Assembly (NCBI RefSeq): GCF_009914755.1 | Contig: NC_060930.1 | Length of the DNA stretch: 64,000 nucleotides | Source: the human T2T-CHM13v2.0 reference genome, Homo sapiens | Strand: one strand, 5' to 3' | Part shown: one piece after another, positions 1-18,410 of the stretch | Layout: every line of letters begins with the position of its first letter | How positions within the stretch are numbered: position 1 is the first letter of the stretch | Made by a program: the position numbers and the translations under genes | The notes under the pieces: generated by a model | Told to the model about the DNA's origin: nothing | Databases searched by the model: none | The model's input: the letters and a program-made list of their open reading frames with translations, nothing else

Positions 1-304
1 AGTACTCATTTCCATGTATACTTACAAGTCTACCCTTTTAGCTAATTTTAGATAACACGCTACATTCACCTGAAGAATTGTTTATGAAGTTTCAAGCTGT
101 GATGATATCATATCTCAAGTTGGTTTTAAATTATAACCGAAAGAATGTTAATGCTGTCTGTATACTTAAAAGTTCACAAATTCATCTCTCTCCCAGACAG
201 CTGTCATATTTTTCCACTAATATGAATAATAATGCAGATAATATTTTAATCTGATGGCAGTTCTGGTGGCATTAGAAAAAAAGAAACCAATAATACCCAG
301 GATG

Positions 305-324
305 TTTTTTTTTTTTTTTTTTTT
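305..324 (+). repeat. poly(T)20 tract
   Basis: Seen directly. Confidence 0.9.
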
Positions 325-1145
325 GCAAATCATGTATCTGTTGTAAAAATTAAAATATCAGTATTAAAGAAAAAGTTAAACAGAAAACTTGAGCCAAAGT
401 GAGGTTCAAGATATTTGAAGTCAGGTATCTTTTACATTCTCATAATATAAATTTTAAGAGTAGCTTATGCTCTTGTGATTTCTAGCTTAGTAAAGTCTAA
501 GCAATGAGTAGTCTATGGTATTATAAAGAGCAATTCAAATATGACCCCTCAGTCCTCAGATGTTTTCTTTACAAGCCAGGACAGAGAAGTGAAGGATTTG
601 GAAGAAAACACTGTAACTGTTAAAGAAAAATTTCTACAGCAATAAGATACCAGAAAAATCTTACCCCCAAACCAGTTCATTACTACTACATTAGCTAAAA
701 CCAGTATTCAAATTTGAATCAGTCACTATAAAGTTTTTTGGTTATATTTAATCGTGATTTTTGACCCTCTGATAGGTACCAAGGACTGGTGGTTCACAGA
801 TTACTGATATGACACTTTCATGTCAATTTCAAAATTAAGATCTAGTCCTGGCTCAAACCAATTATCCAGCAATATTCTTTAGGGTAAAGCAATTTACCTC
901 AATGCATCTTGGTTTTCTCAAAACCTTTACCTCCTTTTCTCTCTTAGTTCACTGCCTTGCTTCACAGAGAAAATTTGGTCTTGAACCCCTGAACTTCTCA
1001 TTTCCAAACTTATGAAAGAATGGACCTCTCCCACCTATCCTTATGTCTTTACTTCTAGGGTTAGAGGAAGAGGAGCATTCTGTTCAAGATTCATCCCTCA
1101 GTCCCCTTAGGGTTATCCTTAAAGCTCTTCCAAATTCTACCTTCA

Positions 1146-1432
1146 GGCCAGGCCCAACGACTAATGCTTATAATCCCAGCAATTTGGGAGGCTGAGGCAG
1201 GAGGATCACTTGAGTCCAAGAGTTCAAGACCAGCCTGGGCAACACAGTGAGACCTCATCTCTACAAAAAAATAAAAAATTAGCTGGGCGTGGCAGTGCAC
1301 ACCTGTGGTCTCAGCTACCCAGGAGGCTGAGGCAGGAGAACTGCTTAAGTCCAGAAGGTCGAGGCTGCATTGAGCTGTGATGATGCTACTGCACTCAGCT
1401 TGGGTGACAGGGAAGACCCTGCTTCAAAACGA
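1146..1432 (+). mobile_element. Alu (AluJ-like)
   Basis: Dimeric Alu; target-site duplication approximately AAATTCTAC(C/T)TTC. Confidence 0.9.
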
Positions 1433-1599
1433 AAAATTCTACTTTCGAATTCCTACTGGCTATTTCCCTGCAGGTTAGAAGCATAGACCCTTCTATTTTA
1501 GTACAAAAACAAAGAGGAAACAAACCAACTAAAACTCTCCCTCTGATTCCGTTACTTCCTTAAGCTTCGTTAAAAGCTAAACTCCTTGAAAAACAGCAC

Positions 1600-2130
1600 A
1601 CAACTGCAATCCATATATCTGAATCCTTCAGTCTTCAACCGGGTACAACAAAGCTTGTCTCCATGATAAAACTAAATTGGACTTATGGTAACCCTGGACT
1701 TCAAATGATCAAATTCAGCAGATTCACTTAGGCCTCTATCCTTCTATCTTTGTTTCTGGGGAGCCATCTTCTCTTGGTTATCCTGCTATGTCCAGCCATT
1801 CCTCATCAGTGCTATTTGTTAGATCCGCTGAGCTCCTCTTCTTCCTTCACGTCACATAATTACACTGGGCAGAAACATTTGTTTTCATCAATTCATCTGC
1901 CTTCTAATGCTGATGTTTCTTAAATCTAAAACACATCTCCTGATCATTAAGTTCAAAACTAAACTAACCTTTGCCCCACTGTTTACTTTCTTAGGGAAAG
2001 CCATCATTCTCCACCTACTTGCCAAGGCCAGAAAGCTGGGACTCATACTAGATTGCTCACCACGCTCCACATATAGATTACTATAGTTTGTACTACTCTT
2101 CCAGTTAAGCCAGTCTTCCAAATAGTGCCA
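1600..2130 (+). mobile_element. L2 fragment
   Basis: Degenerate match to L2 3' region (gttcaaaactaaac...gccaaggccagaaagctgggactcat). Confidence 0.55.
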
Positions 2131-2144
2131 ACATAATAAATCTT

Positions 2145-2357
2145 TTTTTAAAAACTCTTCTTTTAGGTCCAGGGGTGCATGTGAAGCTTGCACAGGTAAA
2201 CTCGTGTCACAGGGACTTGTATGGATTATTACATCACACGGGTATTAAGTCCAGTCCCCAATAGTTATCTTTTCTGCTCCTCTCTCTCCTCCCACCCTTT
2301 GCCCTCAAGTAGACCTCAGTGTCTGTTGTTTCCTTTTTGTGTTTGTAAGTTCTCATC
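2145..2357 (-). mobile_element. L1PA (older, L1PA15/16-like) 3' end
   Basis: ttttaggtccaggggtgcatgtg...ggtaaactcgtgtcac...cccaatagttatcttttctgctcctctc. Confidence 0.75.
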
Positions 2358-2867
2358 TTAATTTGCAGTTATCCAGTTTTGGAATGCCACGAAAAAATAA
2401 TTATGTTTTTAAAAATTATTTTTTAAAAAAACCTTTCCAAATAATTGAAAAACACTATTCTACTCAAATCTCAAAAATATCCAAATATACGTTTTAAACA
2501 GAAAAATTAAAAAAATATTTTCTCTGGATTCTCTATTTTCTGAACCTTTAAAAAAATGTTTTCAGTGAATAATATGTTCCGAGGTGGATTCGACTACAAT
2601 ATACATTACCACTTTACCTTTACAGCACTCTTCCACTAAACATAACTCAATAAACTTCAACTTGGCTGAATTTATATTCATCTAGGGTAGGTGATGTAAT
2701 ACTTCAAAAAAAAAAAAGATGAAGTTTCCTGGCTTCAAGAAGCTTACAGAGGTGTGTGGAGGGACAGATACATAAAGATTAGAAGCGAAAGCAGTTATTA
2801 TGTAAAATTTAAAGAGACAGAAAAAGAGAGTGTGTGTTATTCCTCCCTGAGGTAATTTATAATCTAA

Positions 2868-3289
2868 TGTCAAAAAGAAAAAAATTAAGCTGAAAGCTAA
2901 GTCATTCAAAGAGTTCCTTTTCTTTTTATTCATAAGCAGATAGCTACAGATAAAAGGTTAAATATCTCCGCAGGTAGCTTTCATGTTCACCTTATCTTTT
3001 GAAAAGTGTCAATTTACTGAGTGTGAGATGAATACATAATTGACTATCCCCCTACATGCATCTTTTCTCTTGCAACTTGAGGATTCAGTAATGTGACCAT
3101 ACCTTTCTTTTCTCCTCCAGCCTGTTTTTTTCCCTTTAAATATTGAAGCCCCCAAAATCATCTTTGGAGAAAGGCAGACCCACAGACTGTGTCTGTGATT
3201 CTTGTTTTTTCTTCTGGGTCCTATCCTTAACCTCAGCAAAATAAACTTCTAAATTGTTGAGACCTGTCTCAGATACTTTTTGGTTTACA
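2868..3289 (+). mobile_element. ERV1 MER4-group solo LTR
   Basis: Ends AATAAACTTCTAAATT...GAGACCTGTCTCAGATACTTTTTGGTTTACA; left boundary approximate. Confidence 0.7.
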
Positions 3290-3299
3290 ATTGTTTCCC

Positions 3300-3650
3300 C
3301 TTGCTTGCTCACTACACTACTTAAGCAAAGTGGTCTTCTTTCTGCTCTTTGAGCATGCCAGTTTTCTTCCTAGATGAGGATTTTTGCAGGACATGACTAG
3401 CTCCTTGTTAAGTGTTTCTCTCAGCAAGGCCTTCTATGACCATCCTCTTGAGAGTAGCTTCCCTTCCCAGTCATTCTTTGTCCCATGAACCTATTTTATT
3501 TTCTTCACATCACTTATTATCTGAAACTACCTTATTTGTTTCCTTTTAAGATTATGTGTCTCTCTACAATAAAAGGTTCTTGTTCACTATTACATTCCAA
3601 GCACTTAGAAAAATACTTGGTAGATACTCAATAAATACTTGCTTAAAGAA
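3300..3650 (+). mobile_element. L2 3' end
   Basis: Ends gatactcaataaatacttgcttaaagaat, resembling the L2 terminus. Confidence 0.65.
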
Positions 3651-3799
3651 TGCTAATGGAAAAAACAAGCGAGCCTTCAACAATATAAAAATACTGTAGA
3701 AGGGCAAAAACTTATGTAACGGACACTTGGGAAAAATTTATTATCCTAGATCTAATAGATGATAAACTGCATAAATACACTCTGTTGTTAAGATTAAAG

Positions 3800-5590
3800 A
3801 TTTTTGACAAGGGTGCCAACACCAGTCAAAGGGCAAAGCACTCTTTTCAATAAGTAGTGCTGAGACAACTGGATAGCCTCATGCAATAGAATGAAAGTGG
3901 ACCTATCCATCATACCATATACAAAAATTAATGCAAAATAATCACAGACCTGAATGTAAGATTTAAAACTATAAAAATCTTAAGAAGAAAACATAGGAGT
4001 AAATCTTTGTGACACAAGGCTAGAAAATGGTTTTTTATTACAACACAAAAAGCACAAGTGACAAAAGAAAAAATAAACTGAACCTCATAAAAAAACCTTT
4101 TTGTTTCAAAAGACATCATTAAGAAAGTGAAAAGACAATCCACAAAATGGGATAAAATATTTGCAAATCATCTAACTCATAAGACACTTGTATCTAGAAT
4201 ATATAAAGAACTTAAAAGTAAACAATAAAAAGACAAAAAATCCCAATTTTAAAACCAGGTGAAATATTTAAACAGACATTTCTCCAGAAAAAAAAGTACA
4301 AATGGCATATAAAAAACGCTCAACATCATTAGTCATAAAGAAAACACAAATCAAAATCACTATGATATAACCACTTTTCACCCACTAGGATGGCTATAAA
4401 GAAGAGAATACAAGTGTTGGTGAGGATGAGAAGAAACTGGAACCTCATTCGTACACTGCTGGTGGAATTCGAAAATGGTTCACATGCTCTGGAAAAAGTT
4501 TTGGGAGTTCTTCAAAGTGTCAAACATAGTTACCATATTACCCAACAGTTCCACTCCTAGATACATATCCCATAGAAATGAGAATATATATCCACACCAA
4601 AACTTATACACACAATGTTTGTAGGAGTATTATCTTAATAGCTAAAAAGTAGAAACAACCCAAATGTTCATAAACTGATCAAATATAACAATACGTAACC
4701 TATTCATACAATGAAATCTTATTTGGCAATAAAAAGTAGTGCAGTTGACCCTTGAACAACATGAGTTTGAACTGTGCAGGTCCACCTATAGGTGGATTTT
4801 TTTTCAGTAAGTTACACCAAGAGTGCCTGCCTCTCCTGCCTCCCCTTCCCACTTCTCCACCTCTTCTGCCTCTGCCCCCAGTGAAATAGCAAGACCAAAC
4901 CCTCATTTTCCTCCTCAGGCTATTCAATGTGAAGACAAAGGAAGACCTCTATGATGATTCACTTTGCTTAATGAATAGTAAATGTACATCCTCTTCCTTT
5001 TAATTTTCTTAATAACATTTTCTGTTCTCTGGCTTACTTTAAGAATATAGTATATAATACACATAACACATAAAATATGTGTTAACTGTTTACATTATCA
5101 GTAAGGCTTCCAGTCAACAGCAGGCGATGAGTACTTATTTTTTTGGGGAGTCAAAAGTTATACATTAATTTTTGACTGCACAGGTGGTTGGTCCCCCTAA
5201 TCCCTGTGTTGTTCACTGATATATGTTACAAATAGAGGAATCCTGAAAACGTTATTTTGAGTAAAAGAAGTCAGTTATAAATGACTACATACCATCTGAC
5301 TCCATTTATATGAAATGTTCAGATTAGACAAATCTATAAAGTATATTAATGGCTGCCAGGAATTTGGGGTATGTTCCAAGAGTTTGTATTTGGAGTGTGT
5401 ATGTGTAGGAATTGGGAATGACTGCTAAGAGATATGGGGCTTCATTCAGGGGTGATGAAAAACTCTAAAATCAGATAGTAGGGATGGCTGCAAAACTTTG
5501 TGAATATGGTAAAAACCAGTGAACTGTATATTTTAAAAGAGTGGGCATTACGGTATATAAATTATAGCTCAATAAAACTATTATAAAAAA
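3800..5590 (+). mobile_element. L1M (L1MB-like) ORF2 end and 3' UTR, interrupted by Tigger2a
   Basis: gacaagggtgccaa...acaactggata...; ends aataaaactattataaaaaa. Confidence 0.85.
4742..5218 (+). mobile_element. Tigger2a-like DNA transposon
   Basis: Starts CAGTTGACCCTTGAACAAC; right terminal inverted repeat partly deleted (ttgttcactg). Confidence 0.8.
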
Positions 5591-6609
5591 AGAATAACTG
5601 AAGATACTAGTAAGGTTAATTTTTCCAGACACTGATTCATTTCCAAATTAATCATTTTTTCAATGAGTATTTATTCTACCTTTATTAAATACTAGGGATA
5701 TGAAGATGAATGGCATGATCCTTCACCCTTGGGGAGTTTCCAGATTAGTAGAGGCTGTTCTCCATAAAGCCTTGCTCAATCTGTGCAGGACACTTTATTC
5801 TCTGGACATTCAGACAGCATTCCAAAAGAAGAGTATGCAGTACATTTGTTAAATAAAGAGAAATAGCTTTGAATTGCTAGTCAGAAAATAAATTGTATTT
5901 TTGCCTCTGATTTTATACACAATGAGTACTTCAGAAGGTTTAGTAATCTTGGAGCTACAATCATTACACCAATCATTGCTATCAGGAACGTTTCCTGAAC
6001 ATCTGCAGTACAAGTCAGAATATAGCTTGTTCTCTTTTCCCCCCTCGTCTTCCTTCCCCTTGTCTATATTCCATATCCTGTTGACTTGTGATAATTAGGT
6101 ATAAAAGTGATGGGTTCTGTGACTGATGCTGGACAGCTCAGTGATGGGGTAAGTCTTGTATTTTCTGACATGTTCCTCCCTCCCTAACATGCCCCATCAG
6201 GAAAGCGACAATAGCCTATTGCATTCCAAGTGCCTACTACCAAATGGTAGTAGGTGCCCACTGAATTAAAAAAAAAAAAAAATTCCATTGCACTGACATT
6301 ATATGAAGCAGTCTCTAAATATACTAACATTCTAATTCTTTCCTTCTGGATGTTTTACCTTCTCTTTGTGATATGTAATTATATTTGTTAAATGAATAGA
6401 CGTCTAATTATTCAACTGAATTTTGGGAGTGGACAGAAGAGGGAAGGATGAACTCATGTTGCCATTCCAACTCCTTATTTTCCCAACACCTAAATTAAAA
6501 GTTACACATAAAATAACCTTGCTTGTAAAAGAGGAAAGCTGCTGTGTTGAAAGCATATAAGATACAATTTAGTTGAAATTGTTTACTAATCGAGAGCCTT
6601 TTTGTACAC

Positions 6610-6775
6610 TACCATTTTTAGACTAACTTGGGACCTTGGGCAAATCACTCAACCTGAATAAACTTCAGTCTCCTCCTTTCTAAAATTGGAATAACAATTA
6701 TATCTAATCCATCTCTCAGGATTATTATACAGTATAGTTAAATGAGAAAAGAAATGTGAAAGACTTATAAATGAA
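6610..6775 (+). mobile_element. MIR
   Basis: MIR core gaccttgggcaaatcactcaacct...cagtctcctcctttctaaaattgg. Confidence 0.7.
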
Positions 6776-7194
6776 GGAGAGCATTATCAGTACAATAAAT
6801 CATTTATGTACAGCTTGCATGCATTTCAATGCTTATACAGTTTACTCAGCATATACCTACTGGAACTATATTGACCGGTGTCTTATACAAATTAAATATC
6901 ATATAAAATTTTTCTCAGAGAATGACATGACCTTGTTGATCCTTTACTGAAAGTATCTCCATCACTTAGTATTCTTAAATCTTTAAAAATGTGAAGCTAC
7001 TTGCTAAATGATCACCCTTACTAAATTATCAGCTTCCAGTATTGTAATTCTGTGATAAAGCTGAGCTCCAATAATGAAAGTACACATCAGATTAACTCTT
7101 ATAAAGGTTCCAAACTCTATGAATGGTGCATTCCAGTTCTTTGGAGCATCACTATACCTTTGAAGTTATCTTCCTGGTAATAAAAACTACTTAC

Positions 7195-7221
7195 TTTTGC
7201 AGCACAGGAACGTATCACCTC
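7195..7221 (-). CDS. AHI1: AHI1 27-nt micro-exon (EVIRSCAAK), phase 0 to 0
   Basis: TTTCTTTTAG|GAGGTGATACGTTCCTGTGCTGCAAAA|GTAAGT; continues the recalled Jouberin sequence ...ETVT-EVIRSCAAK. Confidence 0.94.
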
Positions 7222-7821
7222 CTAAAAGAAATACAATAAAATAAGGAAGTATTCATAATTTCATTAAATATTGACTGTTTGCAAAACACTCAGATGTTTA
7301 TCTTCTAATAACCTAAATCAGCATTTGGAAGTTTCTTTATCCATTATCCTGCCGTTGTCACTCTGCATTGTTTCCAATGAAAGAGACTTAATGACATGTT
7401 CAAGGTAAATCTAACTTGCCCAAACAAATGGCACTGTGAAACTCCCGAGGGCTCACAGGTTATCTGCCTCAAGAAAAACTTGCTCTTCAATCAATAGAAT
7501 AAAATTCTATACTAGAACACTAACAGGTGTAAAAGACACATGCTGAGTTAAATGCAATATATAATTATCTCTATAAATAATAATAGCCATAACTATCATT
7601 CCCATATTATTTGTATCAGATGAAATCTAATATTAAATAGTAAATACTACTAAATGATAAAATATATGACTATTATTGAAAGAGCTACAGAAAGGAACTC
7701 TGTACAATTCATGGTACAAGGCCAAGAAAAGATCATTTTGAAAGAGAAACTAGTAAAAGTCGATGTATTATGGACAATTTGAAAATCTGCTGCTAAGGAG
7801 AGAGTAAAAATACTCAAGTCT

Positions 7822-8204
<383 letters not shown>

Positions 8205-8267
8205 CTAGTACAGTGCTAGTGAAAAATGGTCATAATCAACATGGAGTTTAGGAAAAAAAAGAACTGA

Positions 8268-9371
8268 AAAAAATAGATACTTCTCAGTTATTGGGAGCAT
8301 TACCATTTAGTCATAATATAAATCATTTAATTATTTATCAGCATACTTGACTGCATGTTGCTGCCACAGCAATACCTAAAAGCATTCTGCAACCTAGGTA
8401 AGACCTCACAGGTGGACAGTACCTTGAGAACATCGGTATATCTCATTCTAAGTTTTTAGATCCAGAAATTTGATTTTATCAGTGCATCCACAGTTGCTCA
8501 AAATCTGGAATACCTATTAATTTTTTTATCTATAAATTTCTAAGAGCCAGATACTGTATCTAAAGCGTATCAGTAATTCAGTCACTAAAAGGAGACAGTT
8601 AAACTGACTGTGGACATGGGAGTCCAACTACCTGGGCTGAATCCCAGCTCCAGTGCTTACTACTTGTGTGATCTTGGTTATGTGGCTTGATCTCTGTAAG
8701 CCTCAAAATCCTCTTCTGGAAAATGGGAATAATACTCAACCCTATAGGATGGTTTGAGAATTAAATACAATAAAATGTAAAGCCTTTAGCACAGTGCCAG
8801 AAATATATCAATTATTACTAATAATTAAGCAGATGTTAGTTATCATTAATCAATATATACGGTGGTATCTCCTGTGGGGTAGAGAAAATTAATCTTTTTT
8901 CAAAATTGGCATAAAACATTTTCGAACCCATTCAATCCATACTCCTATGGCTCTACTTAGCAATCAACTCTGTGATCATTAGCCTGGGCTTCAGGTTAAA
9001 TTTAGACAGGATGAGATCTTGAGTGTTCAGGCTGCCAGAATGGTCTACCTTTTATTATATTATAAGGTGTATTTTCATGGATTCTCATTTGTTAATCAAC
9101 TTTTTGTAGGATTGATTAATCTTAATAGATACTACAGATTCTGAGCAACCCTGGATGCACTGATAAAATCAAATTTCTGGATCTGAAAACTTAGAATGAG
9201 ATTTACCAACGCTCTCAAGATACCCGTGAAGTCTTACCTGGGTTGCAGAATGCTGTTAGGTATTGCTGTGGCAGCAACATGCAGTCAAGTATGCTAATTA
9301 TGAAATAATTAAGTGATTTATATTATGACTAAATGGTAATGCTCCCAATAACCGACAATTATCTATTTTTT
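8268..9371. repeat. Long inverted repeat: arms 8268-8520 and 9122-9371, ~600-bp spacer
   Basis: Hand alignment gives about 20 substitutions and 2 small indels over ~250 bp. Confidence 0.95.
8600..8840 (+). mobile_element. MIR (inside the spacer of the inverted repeat)
   Basis: ctgggctgaatcccagctcc...tgtgtgatcttgg...aaaatgggaataata...agcacagtgcc. Confidence 0.8.
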
Positions 9372-9975
9372 GTATCTTTTACTCATTAATGCCTAAACAC
9401 CTATTATATACCTGCTGAACTGAATTTATTATGCAATTCACTCACACATACCCCACAAAAATTACACCCTAAACCTGTACCATAATTTATTAGAAAAACA
9501 TTCCTATTGTAATAAAAAATAAATAAAAAAAGGAATTTGGGGTCTACTGAAATAAATGGCAAGAAACGAGAAAAGGCATAATGACAAAAGGTGGGAATTC
9601 AGTCAACCTAAATGTTTGCACAATATAGAATGAGGCTGCCATGGGAATAAAGACGACACTTTGTTTTTATTCCCATACATACTATGTACATTCTGAAAGA
9701 AAATACATTGCAGATAGCATCAGAAAAATAAATTCAGTGAATTCTCTCAACAAAGGAAAAATAATGGTTTTTAAAAACCAAAGCAAAACTTTCATTTCCA
9801 AAGGCAGCTTCTATCTACCTCAATACCAAAGCAGACATATTCTCTAAATAATTTTAAAAAGAAATGATATGCTAAAAGCTAAATAAAGTAATAATTCAAA
9901 GTAAATTTTTTTATAATAAATTATCAATTTGCTTCTCTCTTGCGTTTGATTTCATTTCTTAAAAAACATTTTTCT

Positions 9976-10313
<338 letters not shown>

Positions 10314-12209
10314 TTACATCTACTTTCTTTAGTTCTTACATCCTTTCATTTATCTGAGGATGACAGGTATATAAAATGAAATTAGAAAAAAGCTACAAGA
10401 CTTAGTTGATTCCAGGATGTTAAGTTTTACAGAATAAAGACGGATAGACTGTAGGAAACTTGTTTTTATAAATCTGTTGGTGAGTTGTTTTTATGCCTGT
10501 AGATGAAGTTACTTTGCCATGCAAGTTTTTAGACAAGGAACACATTTTCTTTTTTTTCCTAGTGAAGAAATATGTTTCTCTTCATCTTTAAAGCTCAATG
10601 TATCTATTCAGACTTCCTTTTAAAATCTGGAACAGCATGCATTATTTGATTATATTAAAAATGTTAAAATACAAAGAACTGCAATATTGAAATAAATTTA
10701 TTAATTTATAGTTATATATTCTAAAAGTTAACTAAGAAATATATATACTTTTCTATATTCCTACATTTATTCTGGGTTTAGGTTAAATCTAAACCCAGAG
10801 ATGGAATGTAATCTGCATCCTGATACACCTTCAAGTCTCTAACTTTAGAAAGAAGAGAGAGGAAGAGAGCATAGTCAGAACTAAAGCTGTCTCAATGTAG
10901 TTCCTTGTATAGTTTAAAACTAATCAAGATATCTATCAAGGAAGCAAGAAAAGGGATAACATTTATTAAAGAAGGTAAGAATAAAACAATGAACAAGGGT
11001 GCACAGCCCCTGTCTTCAAGGAGCTCAAAGTAATTCTAATAAAAGGACTTCCACTTAATTCTACTAGAAGTATGGTCAAAGATATTTCTCAGGATGCTTA
11101 GGCTTCTTACTACATTTGACCATTTATCTTTGAGAAAAATTTTCTAGGAATTTTCACTAACAGAATGCTACACTACCTTTAACAAAGCATCTTCCTCCTC
11201 ATCATTTTCATGATCTATTTTCCAATTTTATGGGAAATACCTGGTTTATGTGGTACTTTTCTTATGAGTAGTGAGATAGAACTTTTAAAATATGCCTATG
11301 AAACATTTCTATCTCCTCCTTTTAGAAGAACAGTTTATTTCTTTCACTCATTTCTTTGTTAAAGATTTACTATTTTTCTTCACTGTTTAATTATTTGCAT
11401 GTTAAAAGGGCTGTTTCTTTAATACATTTTATATAAACATTTCCCCAGGCTGGTGTTTGTTGCACATATATGTGTGTGTTTGTATGTTTTGTATATACAC
11501 ACAAATATACACATCCTTATATTTTTAAACAGAGAAATTTAAAATTCTATGTCAATAATCTATTAATATTTTGGGAGAGGATCTTCCACTGCTTTTAAAA
11601 TTAGTATGTTTTCATTCATTTGAGAAATAATTGCAAGTGTATTTCCCTAGTTTTTAAAAAGATCTGGATTTTCATATTTAACTCCTTGGTAAATGAGAAT
11701 TTGATTTAGGTGAGTGACCTAAGATATATATGTAAATGGACTGTATTTTTCAGTTAACTCATAGTTAACAAGGTTTCCCAACACCATACAAGGGAACAAT
11801 TCTTCCTTTCCCCACTGATTTATCTTTCTATCTTAGTGAATTTCAATTATACTACTAGTATTATTTCAGCTTCATTATTACTTTGGCTCTCATGGAGAAG
11901 TTCGAAGGTAGCTTAGTTCCTATGTAGATAACCAGTCTTTTTTTCTCCCCCCCATTATATCTATGATTTTTCTTTAAGAAATCTTTAAAAATCAAGCGAT
12001 TTCACTAGGATATTTCTAAGATACTGGCATCTTTTCATTAATTGGTCTGGTAATAGATACTTTCATTTTATAGATTTTGGGACTTTAGCACAGGAAGGCC
12101 TTTTGTATTTGATCTTTGTTATCTCTTTTCACACATGCTGGTCTCTTCTTTAACAACACTGATCAACTATATGCACAATCTATCTCATATTCATCTCTTC
12201 TCTCATTAT

Positions 12210-12770
12210 CAACAATAATAACTAACATTTATCAGTGGCACTATGTATCAGACACCCTGTTAAGAGGTTTACTTTTAGGGTCTTACTGAATCTTAAAAAT
12301 CCTGTAAGGTAAGAAATACTACAATCCCCATAATGGCTCATGCCTGAAATCCCAATACTCTGGGAGGCTGAGGCAAGAGCACTGCTGACTGCTTGAGGCT
12401 AGGAGTTGGAGACCAGCCTGGGCTACATACCAAGACCCTGTCTCTACAAAAAAAATTTTTTTAATTAGCCAGGCCTGGTGGTGTGTGCCTACAGTCCCAG
12501 CTACTCAAGAGTCAGAGGCAGGAGAATTGCTTGAGCCCAGGCGTTCGAGACTGCAGTGAGCAATGATCACACCACTGCATTCCAACCTGGGCCACAAAGT
12601 GAGACCCTGTCTCTAAATTAAAACAAAACAAAACAACCAAAAACCACCTCATTTTATAGATGAGGAAAACTAGGTTTACTTAAACTTCTCCAGTCAAAAA
12701 GCTGGCACAGGTTGGAGCCTATGCCATTCCTATGCCTAAGCAGCTGGACCCCAGAGCTACACTCTAAACC
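12210..12770 (-). mobile_element. MIR split by an Alu insertion
   Basis: taacatttat...cactatgt...aatcccca then [Alu] then cattttatagatgaggaaaac. Confidence 0.65.
12335..12640 (+). mobile_element. AluJ-like, slightly 5' truncated
   Basis: Alu dimer with (AAAAC)n tail. Confidence 0.9.
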
Positions 12771-13089
12771 ATAGTTTTCACCTATCTCTTTTTTTCTGTA
12801 TTCTTGCGTGCTTCTGAAATTAGTTCTCTACGCTACACTATTGATCTGGTATTTTAAAGTGTCAACTTTCTCTTTTACCATTTGCAATGTGGAATTAATT
12901 GAAGCTTACCTTTTGATTTTCTTTAAATTCATTTTATCTTAGATGTCTTTCTAAAATCAAAATCTTGGGACTCTCATCTCTTCATTAATAGAAATTCTGT
13001 TTTCTTCTATTTTACTGAGAACACACTCTAAATATTCTGTTTCTTATAGCAAAGCATTTTAAGATACGCTTTGCCTTTACTTATTTTCC

Positions 13090-13252
13090 TTTTTTGGGGA
13101 AGCAGGGACACAGTCTCATTTTGTCACCCAGGCTGGAGTGCAGTGGCAGGATCTCGCCTCACTGAAACCTCTGCCTGTCTGGTTCAAGTGATTCTTGTGC
13201 CTCAGCCACCTGAGTGGCTGAGATTACAGGTGTACGCCACCATGCTGGGCTG
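13090..13252 (-). mobile_element. Alu right monomer
   Basis: cccaggctggagtgcagtggc...gattacaggtgtacgccaccatg. Confidence 0.85.
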
Positions 13253-13525
13253 ATAAAGTCACAGCTTCTCTTTCTTTCCTAGGAGATGGAGTCATACCTG
13301 TATGCTAAGTCCTAGGTGTGGTCATCTGGTTCAGAGCCCTCCCTTATCACTAGGTGCTGGGCTAGCCTTTACAGAGATATCAAGTCAGAACAGCATGATA
13401 GATTATCCTAAATTCAGGTTGTCTGTTGCAATTAAGGTTTTAGGAATAAGTACCTGAAAGGAACCATAAAAGTATAGGAAGGTCTAATTTTAAGTAATTA
13501 ACTTACTTCATTAAATGAATATTTA

Positions 13526-13837
<312 letters not shown>

Positions 13838-14348
13838 TCAAGCCCTAAAACTGTAGCATTCAACAAATAATCAGAAACTGCATAACACATCTTAAAAACT
13901 GGGTAATAATAAGACACCATAACTAGCAAAATTTGAAATTATTCAATGCTATAAAATCATAAGGAAGCAAATAGAATTTCATGTCAGGCAGCATTATAAT
14001 TGAGCTGTGAAGGCCATGTAAACTGGGATGGGAGACTAACTTTAAATATATGTATATAGAAAAATAATACTAAAAAATCAAAGGCATAACAGAATTAAGG
14101 GAAATGCTAAAATAATATTTATTCACAAGCCTCTCTAAAACAACTATTTTCATATTTCTGTACCCTTCTTAATTTTTACACACACATTCTATATATCATA
14201 ATGTAAATACAATTTAACATTTCTCAATTTAAATGCAAGTATTTCTTACATTTCTACAATGACGTAATTATAATTATTAAATGTTTTACAGTATCTCATT
14301 TAATGAAGCACCGTAATTTTTTTTTTACACATTCTCTTATACTGAATA

Positions 14349-14646
14349 CAGTTGGTCCACTGTATCTGTGGCTTCCCTATCCATGAATTCAACCAACTAT
14401 GGATAAAAAATATTCAGAAAAAAATAACAATACTATAAAAAATACAGTATGATAACTATTTACATAGCATTTATACTATATTAGGTATTGTAAGTAATCT
14501 ACAGATGATTCCAAGTATGAGAGAAGATGTCCACAGATTATATGCAAAAACTATGACATTTTATGTAAGTGACTTTAGCATCCATAGATTTTTGGTATCC
14601 CCAGGGGTTCTGGAACCAGTCCTCTATAGATAACAAGAGATAACTC
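14349..14646. mobile_element. Tigger/MER2-group non-autonomous DNA transposon
   Basis: TA|CAGTTGGTCC...GATAACTC|TA; tttacatagcatttat...ggtattgtaagtaatcta core. Confidence 0.75.
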
Positions 14647-15045
14647 TATTTATAGTGTTCTCTGTTCTCCCTTATAGATCATGCAAGAATAATTACTTTC
14701 ATAGCTAACTTTGTTTCTTAACATCATTCTTATTTTGGATTTAATTCTCTAGAGTGACGAAGATGGCTCAAAGGGTGAATGTTCTGATGATGACTGATCA
14801 TGATGATGATGATAATGAGCATGGTAGCATCTGTGCTGCACTTTGTATTTTTTGGGGTGCTATCACATACATTACCTCATTTGATCATTTAAAACACATG
14901 AACTTGAAAAATATTAAATGTCTGTCTAAATATACAAAGGAGAAAAAATATATAAACTCATCATTTAAAAAAGTATTTCCTTAGTTACATAATCTTGAAA
15001 TGGAAAGCCTTCCTAAACATGACATGAAAGAAATAAATCTCAAAA

Positions 15046-15216
15046 CAGGGATTCATAATATGGAATCAATGGATAAACCTTCAGGGAGTCTATGGACTAC
15101 TGAAATTACTATGGAAATGTGAGTGTGTTTATATAAGCATTTCTGGAAAGCAGATTCATAATTTTTATCAGGTTATCCATCGAAGGATTACATGAGTCAG
15201 AAAAGGTTAATAATTG
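15046..15216 (+). mobile_element. hAT-Charlie family MITE, degenerate
   Basis: cagggattcataa...cttcagggagtc...aaaaggttaataattg. Confidence 0.5.
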
Positions 15217-15292
15217 TCAACATTCTTATGGACCAATGAACAGATTTTGTAACATGAACATTTAAAGAGTCTTCATTAAAATAAAAAAACTT

Positions 15293-15552
15293 GCCAGGCA
15301 CAGTGTCTCATGCCTTAATCCTGGCACTCTGGGAGGCTGAGGTGGGAGGATCACTTGAGCCTAGGAGTTTGAGACCAGCCCTGGCAAGATAATGAGACCC
15401 TGTCTCTATAAAAAACTGAAAAATTAACCGGGCAGGGTACCATGTGCCTGTAGTTTCCAGCTACTGAGGAGGCTGAGGTGGGTGGGAGGATTGCTTGAGA
15501 CTGGAGGTCGAGGCTGCCACTGCATTCCAGTGAAGACTGGATGACAGAGCTA
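15293..15552 (+). mobile_element. AluJ-like
   Basis: Alu dimer, tail lost. Confidence 0.85.
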
Positions 15553-15849
15553 ATGTGATTTTTAAATCATATTTAAGACTTAAATATATAAATAAACTAC
15601 CACAACAAAAATTAAAAAGGAAATGATGTAATAGGGTTCTTCCATTTCTGACCAAAATGGAGTAGGGACTAGATTTACTCTGCTGCTTGAAACTACCAAA
15701 AAATGGACAAACTGTATAAAAGAAAAAAAAAAAACTGTCTTTGCAGACATGATTGTCTAGGTAGAGCTAAAGTGGAGTAAGGCAAGTGAGGCACACAGGC
15801 AGCAAAATTTAAGGAGGTTCTCACTCTGAGGTCCTGGCTCCATATCTGT

Positions 15850-18410
15850 GTAAAAATTCTAAATGGAATCTAAAAAAATAAGGCACTAGAATTGACTTTA
15901 GCAATGTTGTAGGATTGAGATCAAAACACAAAAATCATCTATATGTCTATATACAAGCAATTAAGAACCAAAAATTGAAATTAAAAAAAAAATGCCATTT
16001 ACTATGGCATAAAAAAAGTGACATACTTTGGGGAAAAAAAGGAGAAAGATGTGAAAGACCTGTATACTGAAAACTAAAAATACTGCTGAGAGAAACTGAC
16101 AAAGCAATTTGTCATTGTGTTCATGGGGTGGCATACTCAATATTGGTAAGATGTAAATTCTCCCCAAATGATCTGTAGATTCAATGCAGTCCCACTCAAA
16201 ATTCCAGCAGGTTATTTTTGGAGAAATTGTAAAATAAATTCTAAAATCGACATGGAAATGAATATTACCTAGAACAGCCAAAACAACTTTGAAAAAGAAA
16301 AGAATACCTGACTTCAAATCCTATAAAGCTACAGTAATCCACACAGTTTGCTACTGGCATAAAGATAAATAAACAGATCAACAGAATAGTATAGAGTGCC
16401 CAGGGTGTATAGACAAAGTATAAAGGCCATTCAGTGGAGAAAAGACAGTTTTTTCCAACAAATGGTGTTAGAATAGTTGGATATTCATATGTGAAAAAAA
16501 TGAACTTTGATCCATACTTTACAACATGTACAAAAGTAACTCAAAATGAACCACAGATCTAAATGTAAAACCCAAAGCTGTAAGACTTCTAGAAAAAAAC
16601 AGAGAACACCTTTGTGAGCTTGGGTTAGGCAAAGATTTCTTAGACACAACACTAAAATGCATAAAAGAACAAGCTGATAATTTGAACTTCATCAAAATCT
16701 CAAACTTCTGTTCTTTAAACTGTTAAGACAATTAGAAAACAAACCAGACTGGGGGGAAATACCTGCAAATCATATGCCTGATAAAATACTTGTATACACA
16801 AAACACAAAGAAATCTCAAAACTCAATAATCAGAAAACAAATAGGACAATTTAAAAAATGGAGAAAAGATTTGAAAAGACAATTTACTGAAGAAGCTATA
16901 TGGATGACAAATAAGCATGCAAAAAAAGGTGCTCAGTATCATTAGTCATTAGGGAAAAGCAAATTAAAACCACAATAAAATAGCACTGCATGTATATTAG
17001 AATGGCTAATATTCAAAAGATTGGACATTTCTTTTTTTAAATTTTTTTATTTATTTTTATTTTATTATTATTATACTTTAAGTTTTAGGGTACATGTGCA
17101 CAATGTACAGGTTAGTTACATATGTATACATGTGCCAGGCTGGTGTGCTGCACCCATTAACTCGTCATTTAGCATTAGGTATATCCCTAATGCTATCCCT
17201 CCCCCCTCCCCCCACCCCACAACAGGCCCCAGAGTGTGATGTTCCCCTTCCTGTGTCCATGTGTTCTCACTGTTCAATTCCCATCTATGAGTGAGAACAT
17301 GTGGTGTTTGGTTTTTTGTCCTTGCGATAGTTTGCTGAGAATGATGATTTCCAATCTCATCCATGTCCCTACAAAGAACATGAACTCATCATTTTTTATG
17401 GCTTCATAGTATTCCATGGTGTATATGTGCCACATTTTCTTAATCCAGTCTATCATTGTTGGACATTTGGGTTGGTTCCAAGTCTTTCCTATTGTGAATA
17501 GTGCCGCAATAAACATATGTGTGCATGTGTCTTTATAGCAGCATGATTTATAGTCCTTTGGGTATATACCCAGTAATGGGATGGCTGTGTCAAATGGTAT
17601 TTCTAGTTCTAGATCCCTGAGGAATTGCCACACTGACTTCCACAATGGTTGAACTAGTTTACAGTCCCACCAACAGTGTAAAAGTGTTCCTATTTCTCCA
17701 CATCCTCTCCAGCACCTGTTGTTTCCTGACTTTTTAATGATTGCCAAGATTGGCCATTTCAAAGTTGGCAAGTACACTGATATACTAATGGTGGGAATGT
17801 TAAATGTTAAACGGCACAATCACTTTAAAAAATAGTCTGGCAGCTTCTTAAGAAGTCAAACATACATCTGCAATATGATCCAGCCCTTCTGCTCCTAGAA
17901 ATTTGTCAAAGAGAAATGAAGCATATGTCCATACAAAGACTTGTATGTGAATATTTGGAGCAGCTTTATTTGTAATAGCTAAAACCTGGTTACAACCCCA
18001 ATGTCCATTGACAGGTGAATGGATAAACAAACTGTGGCATAGCCATACAATTAAACAACACCCAACAATATAAAGAATAAACTACTGATAAATGCTAAAA
18101 CACAGATTTATCAAAGTAATTATAAGTGAAAGGAGCCAGATAAAAAAAGAGTACATGGTATATACAGTTTCACTTATATACAATTCTGGAAAATGCAAAC
18201 TAATTTATAGTGGTTGCCTGGGATAAGGGTGAGGAAGGAACAGAACACAAAAGGGCACAAAGTAACTTTTGGGGATGAAATATGTTCATTATCTTGATTG
18301 AGGCAATAGTCTCCCAGGTTTATAAATGCCCAAACTTATCAGATAGTACATTTAAATAGTTCAGTTTATAATATGTCAATTATACCTCAATAAAGCCATT
18401 CACCAAAAAA
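15850..18410 (+). mobile_element. Old L1M ORF2 and 3' UTR (host element)
   Basis: Degenerate L1 ORF2 motifs; ends tatacctcaataaagcc...aaaaaa; ORF 15961-16317 is its antisense reading. Confidence 0.85.
17032..17745 (-). mobile_element. L1PA (L1PA3-like) 5'-truncated insertion, 714 bp
   Basis: ORF 17274-17819 contains the L1 ORF2p C-terminus ([20 protein letters not shown]...); 15-bp target-site duplication AAGATTGG(A/C)CATTTC at 17017-17031 and 17746-17760. Confidence 0.95.

What the first reader, a model, noticed from the sequence alone, without database searches (positions are those of the whole stretch)
8268..9371. Non-Alu ~250-bp inverted repeat predicted to form a long dsRNA stem in AHI1 pre-mRNA, ~1 kb upstream of the 27-nt micro-exon
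Seen: 8268-8520 is the reverse complement of 9122-9371 (hand alignment: ~20 substitutions, 2 small indels, ~90% identity, perfect runs up to ~40 bp), around a 600-bp spacer containing a MIR. I do not recognise the arms as any transposon or terminal inverted repeat. Of the 14 transition differences, 11 give G-U wobble pairs on the minus (AHI1 sense) strand and only 3 on the plus strand, although several of these could be simple CpG decay. Established: long intronic duplexes are ADAR substrates and can control splicing. Inference: this is a local fold-back duplication that may be kept as an RNA structure, or kept similar by arm-to-arm gene conversion.
Basis: partly seen in the sequence, partly recalled or inferred. 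Interest (0 to 1): 0.85.

Follow-up and report, generated by a model that had tools for sequence, protein, structure and literature searches.

The report
Local inverted duplication in AHI1 intron
A 250-base stretch of an AHI1 intron was copied in reverse about 600 bases away some tens of millions of years ago, so the intron RNA can fold into a long hairpin, but nothing found here shows that the hairpin does anything.

Summary
The inverted repeat is real. Window 8268-8520 is the reverse complement of 9122-9371: 225 of 246 aligned bases are identical, there are two indels (4 and 7 nt), and the spacer is 601 nt.

In the whole T2T genome the arms match only each other. The inner 70-125 nt of each arm come from an old dispersed repeat whose other copies are at most about 76% identical. 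The outer ~120 nt are not part of that repeat, yet are 94% identical between the arms. So this is a local inverted segmental duplication. It is not a transposon's terminal repeats and not two independent insertions. K2P distance is 0.092, roughly 30-46 My old.

On the AHI1 sense strand it is predicted to form a 236-bp duplex of -373 kcal/mol, 35 kcal/mol more stable than on the other strand.

The wobble asymmetry holds (12 versus 3, p=0.035) but drops to 8 versus 3 without CpG sites.

Both arms lie in intron 21. The 27-nt exon is in 23 of 23 RefSeq transcripts that span it.

Editing, conservation across species and in-cell pairing could not be tested. Verdict: an ordinary member of the known class of non-Alu intronic dsRNAs, probably neutral.

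The parts
8268..8520 (-). Left arm of the inverted repeat (253 nt). It is transcribed second in the AHI1 pre-mRNA and forms the 3' strand of the stem.
   Evidence: reverse complement of 9122-9371, 225 of 246 aligned bases identical
9122..9371 (-). Right arm of the inverted repeat (250 nt). It is transcribed first and forms the 5' strand of the stem.
8521..9121 (-). 601-nt spacer, the loop of the predicted hairpin.
8619..8802 (+). Old interspersed repeat inside the spacer. I recognise it as MIR from memory; no tool named it. It is older than the duplication.
   Evidence: 25 matches elsewhere in the genome, 69-83% identity, all within query 450-633
8386..8510 (-). Part of the left arm derived from an old dispersed repeat family (like RF02089 / CLRN1-AS1 conserved region).
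   Evidence: (E 4e-12 against a profile built from 12 other genomic copies)
9133..9203 (+). Matching part of the right arm derived from the same old repeat family. Whether the repeat runs on into the spacer (8950-9121) is unresolved.
   Evidence: (E 4.8e-13); flank-only tests were weak or negative
8412..8418 (.). 7-nt stretch present only in the left arm; a bulge in the stem.
9299..9302 (.). 4-nt stretch present only in the right arm; a bulge in the stem.
7195..7221 (-). Context only: the 27-nt exon 22 of 29 (NM_001134831.2), 1047 nt downstream in the transcript.

Best explanation
A roughly 255-bp piece of AHI1 intron 21 was duplicated in inverted orientation about 600 bp from its source. The piece held the 3' part of an old dispersed repeat plus about 120 bp of adjoining unique DNA. 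The likely cause is a replication or repair template switch in an anthropoid ancestor, some 30-46 My ago on a neutral clock (inference). The two copies have since drifted apart to 91.5% identity.

Because both copies lie in one intron of a transcribed gene, the pre-mRNA is predicted to fold into a stem of about 236 bp with a 601-nt loop. Such a stem is the kind of substrate ADAR enzymes edit (inference; not observed here). It leaves with the intron, and I expect no specific effect on splicing of the 27-nt exon or on AHI1 function.

Shown here: the repeat, its uniqueness in the genome, its composite content and the predicted fold. Inferred: the mechanism of origin, the date, editing and neutrality.
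For: - Uniqueness: the arms match only each other in the whole genome. In one search both of the 2 candidates were the arms. In one search there were 28 matches: 1 to itself, 2 arm to arm, and 25 to the MIR-like part of the spacer at 69-83% identity. That search can therefore see old repeats, yet found no third copy of the arms.
- Composite content: a profile of the two arms hits 13 of 20 RF02089-like loci at E<0.1, always within arm positions 6-120 of about 257. Among those loci, homology runs from about 155 nt before the arm's inner edge to about 100-113 nt inside it. The outer part of the arms has no relative there but is 94% identical between the arms (I3). The copied unit thus crosses a junction between repeat and unique DNA.
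- Relative age: arm to arm is 91.5% identical, against at most 76% over 66 nt to the best other family copy. The MIR-like spacer repeat is much more diverged.
- Fold: the minimum-energy fold of the sense strand 8200-9440 pairs the arms almost end to end. The arm duplex is -372.8 kcal/mol with 236 bp and a longest helix of 43 bp.
- Known class: a genome-wide map lists 497,429 predicted non-repetitive dsRNAs, 4,597 of them edited, with an edited median of 144 bp, -184.8 kcal/mol and a 509-nt loop (PMC11838218, passages and Table 1 read).
- Splicing: the 27-nt exon is in 23 of 23 spanning RefSeq transcripts. It has a pyrimidine-rich 3' splice site and a GTAAGT 5' splice site.
Against: - The 12:3 excess of differences that keep G-U pairing on the sense strand (p=0.035 two-sided) is not expected under plain neutrality. 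In addition, 36 inverted Alu pairs in the same gene window give 689:693, with no pair at or above 0.8. This hints at selection for pairing or at a strand-specific mutation bias.
- No outgroup genome, editing table or cross-linking data could be consulted. The date, the neutrality and the folding in cells are therefore all untested.
- Matches in closed regions of the reference are not shown, so a hidden third copy cannot be wholly excluded.
- The direction of the duplication is unresolved.
Confidence: 0.7

Rival explanations
1. The stem is kept by selection as a functional RNA structure in the AHI1 pre-mRNA, for example an ADAR- or dsRBP-binding element that tunes splicing or intron processing. 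Substitutions that break pairing on the sense strand would then have been removed.
For: - Twelve of 15 transition differences give G-U on the sense strand and 3 on the other strand (p=0.035).
- The sense-strand duplex is 35 kcal/mol more stable.
- Inverted Alu pairs in the same window show no such bias: 689:693, with per-pair fractions of 0.25-0.68.
- Mouse Ahi1 has an nSR100-dependent splicing event, but the exon is not named in the passages I read (PMC4387716).
Against: - Without the four CpG-context sites the split is 8:3 (p=0.23).
- The test was chosen after the data had been seen.
- A>G exceeds T>C on the non-template strand of mammalian genes (PMC2927911, section 5 read). That pushes the split the same way without any selection.
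- There are also 6 transversions and two bulges that break pairing.
- Both arms are in one intron, whereas the exon-skipping effect reported for inverted Alu repeats concerns pairs that flank an exon (PMC13019944, passages read).
- Exon 22 is constitutive in RefSeq.
- Conserved dsRNAs in the genome-wide map are short and weak (median 65 bp, -42 kcal/mol), unlike this one.
Confidence: 0.1
2. The inverted repeat is older than its divergence suggests, and arm-to-arm gene conversion held the arms alike for a long time. The 8.5% difference then dates only the end of conversion.
For: - Inverted arms 600 bp apart are a suitable substrate for intrachromatid conversion. This is established for large X and Y palindromes (recalled, no call).
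- The identity is patchy, with 94% in the outer 69 nt against 86-88% further in.
Against: - There are no long identical tracts beyond 40 nt.
- Differences are spread over the whole arm.
- Nothing here requires conversion.
- It cannot be told apart from simple duplication without outgroup genomes.
Confidence: 0.12
3. The arms are transposon sequence: either the terminal inverted repeats of one low-copy DNA transposon (8268-9371), or two independent insertions of the same family in opposite orientation.
For: - Both arms carry a piece of a dispersed repeat family at their inner ends.
- A TA dinucleotide can be placed next to each outer end if the boundary is moved inward by 8 nt (read by eye).
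Against: - There is no third copy in the genome at BLAST sensitivity.
- The family homology covers only the inner 70-125 nt of 253, and it faces inward rather than toward the outer termini.
- Arm to arm is 91.5% identical, against at most 76% to other copies.
- No direct repeat of 2-8 nt flanks 8268/9371 or either arm alone (read by eye).
- The spacer holds a much older repeat, which a younger transposon could not contain (inference).
Confidence: 0.05

Closest known systems
Inverted Alu pairs (IRAlus) in introns and UTRs, the main source of human dsRNA and of A-to-I editing
   Same: - Two inverted copies of about 250-300 nt lie within one transcript.
- The predicted stem is long and imperfect; its energy (-373 kcal/mol) is close to the median of edited repetitive dsRNAs (-410.8; PMC11838218 Table 1).
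- It sits within one intron, like 78.9% of SPLASH-detected duplexes (PMC13019944).
   Different: - The arms are not Alu and have no other copy in the genome.
- They arose from one duplication, not from two insertions.
- They can pair only with each other, so nothing competes with them and they have no partners in trans.
Non-repetitive predicted dsRNAs of the human dsRNAome map (dsRNAscan, PMC11838218)
   Same: - It is an intramolecular stem from non-Alu sequence.
- The loop of 601 nt is close to the median of the edited non-repetitive class (509 nt).
- Its pairing (236 pairs, spanning 246 aligned positions of arms of 253 and 250 nt) and its longest helix (43 bp) exceed that class's medians of 87.5% and 30 bp.
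   Different: - It is longer and more stable than the class median (144 bp, -184.8 kcal/mol).
- That map might file it as 'repetitive' if the old repeat in the arms is annotated.
- I could not see the paper's tables (supplements are closed), so I do not know whether this stem is listed or edited.
Inverted repeats made by replication template switching
   Same: A nearby stretch is copied in reverse orientation close to its source, which creates a hairpin-forming repeat. The abstract of PMC7954356 (seen in the search listing) describes the process.
   Different: - That study concerns short-range events.
- This copy is about 255 bp long and 600 bp from its source.
- No microhomology at the junctions could be shown (by eye).
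Large X/Y-chromosome palindromes kept alike by arm-to-arm gene conversion (recalled, no call)
   Same: Inverted arms around a short spacer.
   Different: - Those arms are kilobases to megabases long and more than 99.9% identical (recalled).
- These are 250 bp long and 91.5% identical, with no sign of current conversion.

Membership tests
DNA transposon with terminal inverted repeats (MITE-like) | Multiple copies of the element or its termini in the genome | tested here: not met
   the arms match only each other. One search did find 25 old-repeat copies for the spacer, so its sensitivity reaches about 70% identity.
DNA transposon with terminal inverted repeats (MITE-like) | Target-site duplication next to the outer ends | tested here: not met
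   read by eye: no 2-8-nt direct repeat at 8268/9371. A TA on each side appears only if the ends are moved inward by 8 nt, which is within chance.
Two independent insertions of one interspersed repeat family (as in inverted Alu pairs) | Arm boundaries coincide with the ends of the family unit, and homology does not extend into flanking DNA | tested here: not met
   family homology covers only the inner 70-125 nt of each 253-nt arm. The outer segment is 94% identical between the arms (I3) and has no relative in the 20 family loci.
Two independent insertions of one interspersed repeat family (as in inverted Alu pairs) | Arm-to-arm identity similar to the identity of an arm with other copies | tested here: not met
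   91.5% arm to arm against at most 76% over 66 nt to the best other copy, L012.
Local inverted segmental duplication | Exactly two copies, adjacent and inverted, with a copied unit unrelated to repeat boundaries | tested here: met
Local inverted segmental duplication | One arm absent from outgroup species (an empty site) | not testable with these tools
ADAR-edited intronic dsRNA | Long, mostly paired intramolecular duplex on the transcribed strand | tested here: met
   236 bp, -372.8 kcal/mol on the AHI1 sense strand. The stem lies in intron 21 of all 23 spanning transcripts.
ADAR-edited intronic dsRNA | Clustered A-to-I sites on both arms in RNA-seq | not testable with these tools
   No reads and no REDIportal. 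Literature searches found no paper on editing of this intron. Supplementary tables are closed.
Conserved functional RNA structure | Compensatory or pair-preserving change beyond the neutral expectation | tested here: inconclusive
   12:3 in favour of sense-strand G-U (p=0.035); 8:3 without CpG sites. The Alu-pair control gives 689:693. No cross-species covariation test was possible.
Exon-looping inverted repeats that promote exon skipping | Arms in the two introns that flank an alternative exon | tested here: not met
   Both arms are in intron 21. Exon 22 is in 23 of 23 spanning RefSeq transcripts.

The most novel reading that the evidence does not exclude
A primate-born, single-copy hairpin of about 240 bp in AHI1 intron 21 has been kept paired on the sense strand by selection; the G-U-biased divergence would be its footprint. 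It would act as a dedicated dsRNA element, through ADAR or another dsRNA-binding protein, that tunes processing of the intron just upstream of the 27-nt exon of a Joubert-syndrome and autoimmune-risk gene.
Probability: 0.06. Interest if true: 0.55.

Novelty: new member of a known kind. Interest (0 to 1): 0.2.

Why it matters
If it is only what the evidence shows, it is one more non-Alu intronic dsRNA. Its use is as a clean, partner-free ADAR substrate in a widely expressed gene, because the arms can pair only with each other.

It also carries a caution for repeat-based filtering. The arms would probably be annotated in part as the same old repeat in opposite orientations. That looks like two insertions, although the sequence shows one duplication.

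If the G-U bias reflects selection, it would be a rare case of a young, long, structure-constrained intronic stem in a disease gene.

Tried and rejected
1. Transposon terminal repeats or two independent insertions: rejected. Details are under the rival explanations.

2. Known RNA family: Rfam gave only sub-threshold hits to RF02089 on both arms (25.2 and 23.7 bits, cut-off 48). That model has no base pairs. The hits reflect shared ancestry with an old dispersed repeat and do not indicate an RNA gene. In the genome, RF02089 gave 53 matches at E<=10, of which 1 was above the cut-off; 56 of 756,551 candidates were scored.

3. Which arm is the parent: full-length profiles align the old repeat from the right arm on into the spacer. 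One search gives 8950-9201 at 56.2 bits, against 33.9 bits for the left arm. One search gives 8965-9203 at 54.8 bits, against 37.4 bits for 8440-8599, where the left extension has low posterior probability. The spacer flank on its own is only weakly supported: 4.8 bits, bias 12.2, E=0.0036 in a 1.5-kb search, with 0 of 200 shuffles reaching that score. A profile of the upstream part alone did not find the flank among about 60 listed window hits. I therefore leave the direction open.

4. RefSeq soft-masking: the arms are not masked, but neither is the MIR-like repeat, so this tells nothing.

5. Mutation-bias null: inverted Alu pairs (9 plus-strand by 4 minus-strand, 36 pairs) were compared as they stand. 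The pairs are not independent, and differences between Alu subfamilies dilute any bias.

6. Literature: searches for AHI1 with 'inverted repeat' and 'intron' (3 papers, none relevant), with 'A-to-I' and 'editing' (8 papers, on engineered editing or unrelated), with 'edQTL' (1 paper, where AHI1 appears only as an eQTL colocalisation) and with 'microexon' (6 papers). None describes this repeat. Supplementary tables that might list editing sites or predicted dsRNAs were closed.

7. More family members: a BLAST search of the genome with one family copy found only that copy.

Full report
The repeat finder reports three collinear inverted segments that together pair 8268-8520 with 9122-9371 across a 601-nt spacer. 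An alignment of the two regions, each extended by more than 100 nt, shows homology that starts and stops sharply at these coordinates. A global alignment was run on a slightly wider range. After I dropped the seven columns outside 8268-8520, it gives 225 identical of 246 aligned columns, 15 transitions, 6 transversions, and indels of 4 nt and 7 nt. BLAST of the left arm against the whole T2T genome gives the right arm at E = 1.8e-85 and 88% identity, gaps counted.

**The arms are single-copy apart from each other.** In one search the first look found 2 candidates, and both were the arms. A second search used the whole 1311-bp structure at E<=10 and returned 28 matches: the query itself, the two arm-to-arm matches, and 25 matches on other chromosomes. 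All 25 fall in query 450-633 (window 8619-8802) at 69-83% identity. That stretch is the old interspersed repeat in the spacer, which I recognise as a MIR from memory. The search can therefore see repeats at about 70% identity, yet it finds no third copy of the arms. Two caveats apply: only the best candidates are scored, and closed regions are not shown.

**Part of each arm is old repeat.**
- Rfam gave sub-threshold, structure-free hits of both arms to RF02089, the 'CLRN1-AS1 conserved region' (25.2 and 23.7 bits, cut-off 48).
- Searching the genome with RF02089 gave one true hit on chromosome 3 and 52 weak ones.
- A profile of the two arms matched 13 of the 20 loci fetched from that search at E<0.1. 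Every match was at the RF02089 site and within arm positions 6-120.
- A profile built from 12 of those other loci, with the arms left out, hit the right arm at E 4.8e-13 and the left arm at E 4e-12.
- A sequence-only model of 10 loci found exactly two hits in the 64-kb window on both strands, and they were the two arms.
- The best pairwise identity of an arm to another copy is 76% over 66 nt (L012).
- Among the other copies, homology runs from about 155 nt before the point that corresponds to the arm's inner edge to about 100-113 nt inside it.

**What the copied unit shows.** The 253-nt copied unit consists of the last ~70-125 nt of an old repeat plus ~120 nt of DNA outside it, and the outermost 69 nt are 94% identical between the arms (I3). 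A unit that crosses a junction between repeat and unique DNA, exists twice only, and is far more alike than any two family members is a segmental duplication. It is not a pair of insertions or a transposon's termini. The much older repeat in the spacer fits this: the spacer predates the event.

**Which arm is the original is open.**
- Full-length profiles carry the alignment from the right arm into the spacer, back to 8950-8965. The right side scores 17-22 bits more than the left.
- The flank alone scores only 4.8 bits with high bias.
- An upstream-only profile does not pick the flank out of the window.

**Age.** The K2P distance is 0.092 (0.073 without the four CpG-context transitions). At 1.0-1.5e-9 substitutions per site per year this is about 30-46 My (24-36 My without the CpG sites). 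The rates are from memory. Gene conversion would make this a minimum age.

**RNA fold.** AHI1 is on the minus strand and the repeat lies in intron 21 of NM_001134831.2. The minimum-energy fold of the sense strand 8200-9440 pairs the arms almost end to end (-524.7 kcal/mol for the whole stretch).

| Arm duplex | Energy (kcal/mol) | Base pairs | G-U pairs |
|---|---|---|---|
| AHI1 sense (minus) strand | -372.8 | 236 | 12 |
| Plus strand | -337.8 | 225 | 4 |

- The longest helix on the sense strand is 43 bp.
- Within window 1-16000 the only other inverted repeats of 50 nt or more are two Alu pairs at 78% complementarity, 2.8 and 5.0 kb apart.

**The wobble asymmetry.** Twelve of the 15 transition differences give G-U on the sense strand and 3 give it on the plus strand (binomial p=0.035, two-sided). 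Four of the 12 lie in CpG context, and all four read as C>T on the sense strand. Without them the split is 8:3 (p=0.23).

As a local null I compared the 36 inverted Alu pairs in the window as they stand. They give 689 sense against 693 antisense, with per-pair fractions of 0.25-0.68. That null is imperfect, because the pairs are not independent and Alu subfamily differences are mixed in.

Polak et al. (PMC2927911, section 5 read) report that A>G exceeds T>C on the non-template strand along mammalian genes, and that C>T and G>A are about equal beyond the first 1-2 kb. That bias alone pushes an intronic inverted repeat toward sense-strand G-U. The signal is therefore suggestive and no more.

**Splicing link.**
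- The 27-nt exon (7195-7221) is in 23 of 23 RefSeq transcripts that span it.
- It has a pyrimidine-rich 3' splice site and a GTAAGT 5' splice site.
- Both arms are upstream of it in one intron. In contrast, the association of inverted Alu repeats with exon skipping concerns pairs that flank an exon (PMC13019944, passages read).
- A mouse study lists Ahi1 among genes with nSR100-promoted events, without naming the exon in the passages I read (PMC4387716).

**Place among known things.** A genome-wide map predicts 5.13 million human dsRNAs (PMC11838218, passages and Table 1 read). Of these, 497,429 are non-repetitive, and 4,597 of those are edited on both arms (median 144 bp, -184.8 kcal/mol, 509-nt loop). 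The dsRNAs conserved across species are short and weak (median 65 bp, -42 kcal/mol). The AHI1 stem is a strong member of the non-Alu class. I could not check whether it is listed or edited, because the tables are in closed supplements. Four literature searches found no paper on this repeat.

**Verdict.** This is a real, single-copy, primate-age inverted duplication that should form a long intronic hairpin. It is most likely neutral and probably edited. It is a new member of a known kind, of low to moderate interest. The one open lead is the G-U bias.

Noticed in passing
L003-L022 (for example L012:1498-1568, L009:1505-1566, L022:1510-1565); window 8386-8510 and 9133-9203: Rfam's RF02089 'CLRN1-AS1 conserved region' looks like one copy of an old dispersed repeat of at least 256 nt. 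Copies on many chromosomes are 60-76% alike, so weak RF02089 hits elsewhere are probably repeat copies and not lncRNA relatives. I could not name the family.
   Followed up: partly
L007 (G000:C4:168593692-168596747) and L008 (G000:C4:122668114-122671170): Two chromosome-4 loci 46 Mb apart are 96.9% identical over the full 900 nt compared. This looks like a segmental duplication or a younger, longer repeat that contains the old family copy.
   Followed up: no
window 13107-13254 versus 7954-8096 and 10138-10276: An Alu near the 5' end of intron 21 is inverted relative to two Alus on either side of the finding (139-143 nt, 78% complementary). These are further possible dsRNA partners within the same intron, and one such pairing would enclose the hairpin.
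   Followed up: no
window 7956-8105, 9971-10280: Sub-threshold Rfam hits to Metazoa_SRP, mir-1268, mir-3135 and mir-619 all lie in Alu elements. These are ordinary Alu-derived look-alikes.
   Followed up: no
window 8107-8159: An A-rich (GAAAAA)n-like tract follows the Alu at 7819-8105 (D1), about 110 nt from the left arm. It is probably the Alu tail grown into a microsatellite.
   Followed up: no
window 8205-8250: By eye, the stretch just outside the left arm resembles the 3' part of a MIR, as does 8780-8830 inside the spacer. This is recognised from memory and not tested. If it is real, two MIR-like tails sit on either side of the left arm.
   Followed up: no
window 8286, 8410, 8432, 8434: All four CpG-context differences between the arms read as C>T on the AHI1 sense strand and none as G>A. 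The number is too small to interpret, but it goes in the direction of non-template-strand deamination.
   Followed up: partly
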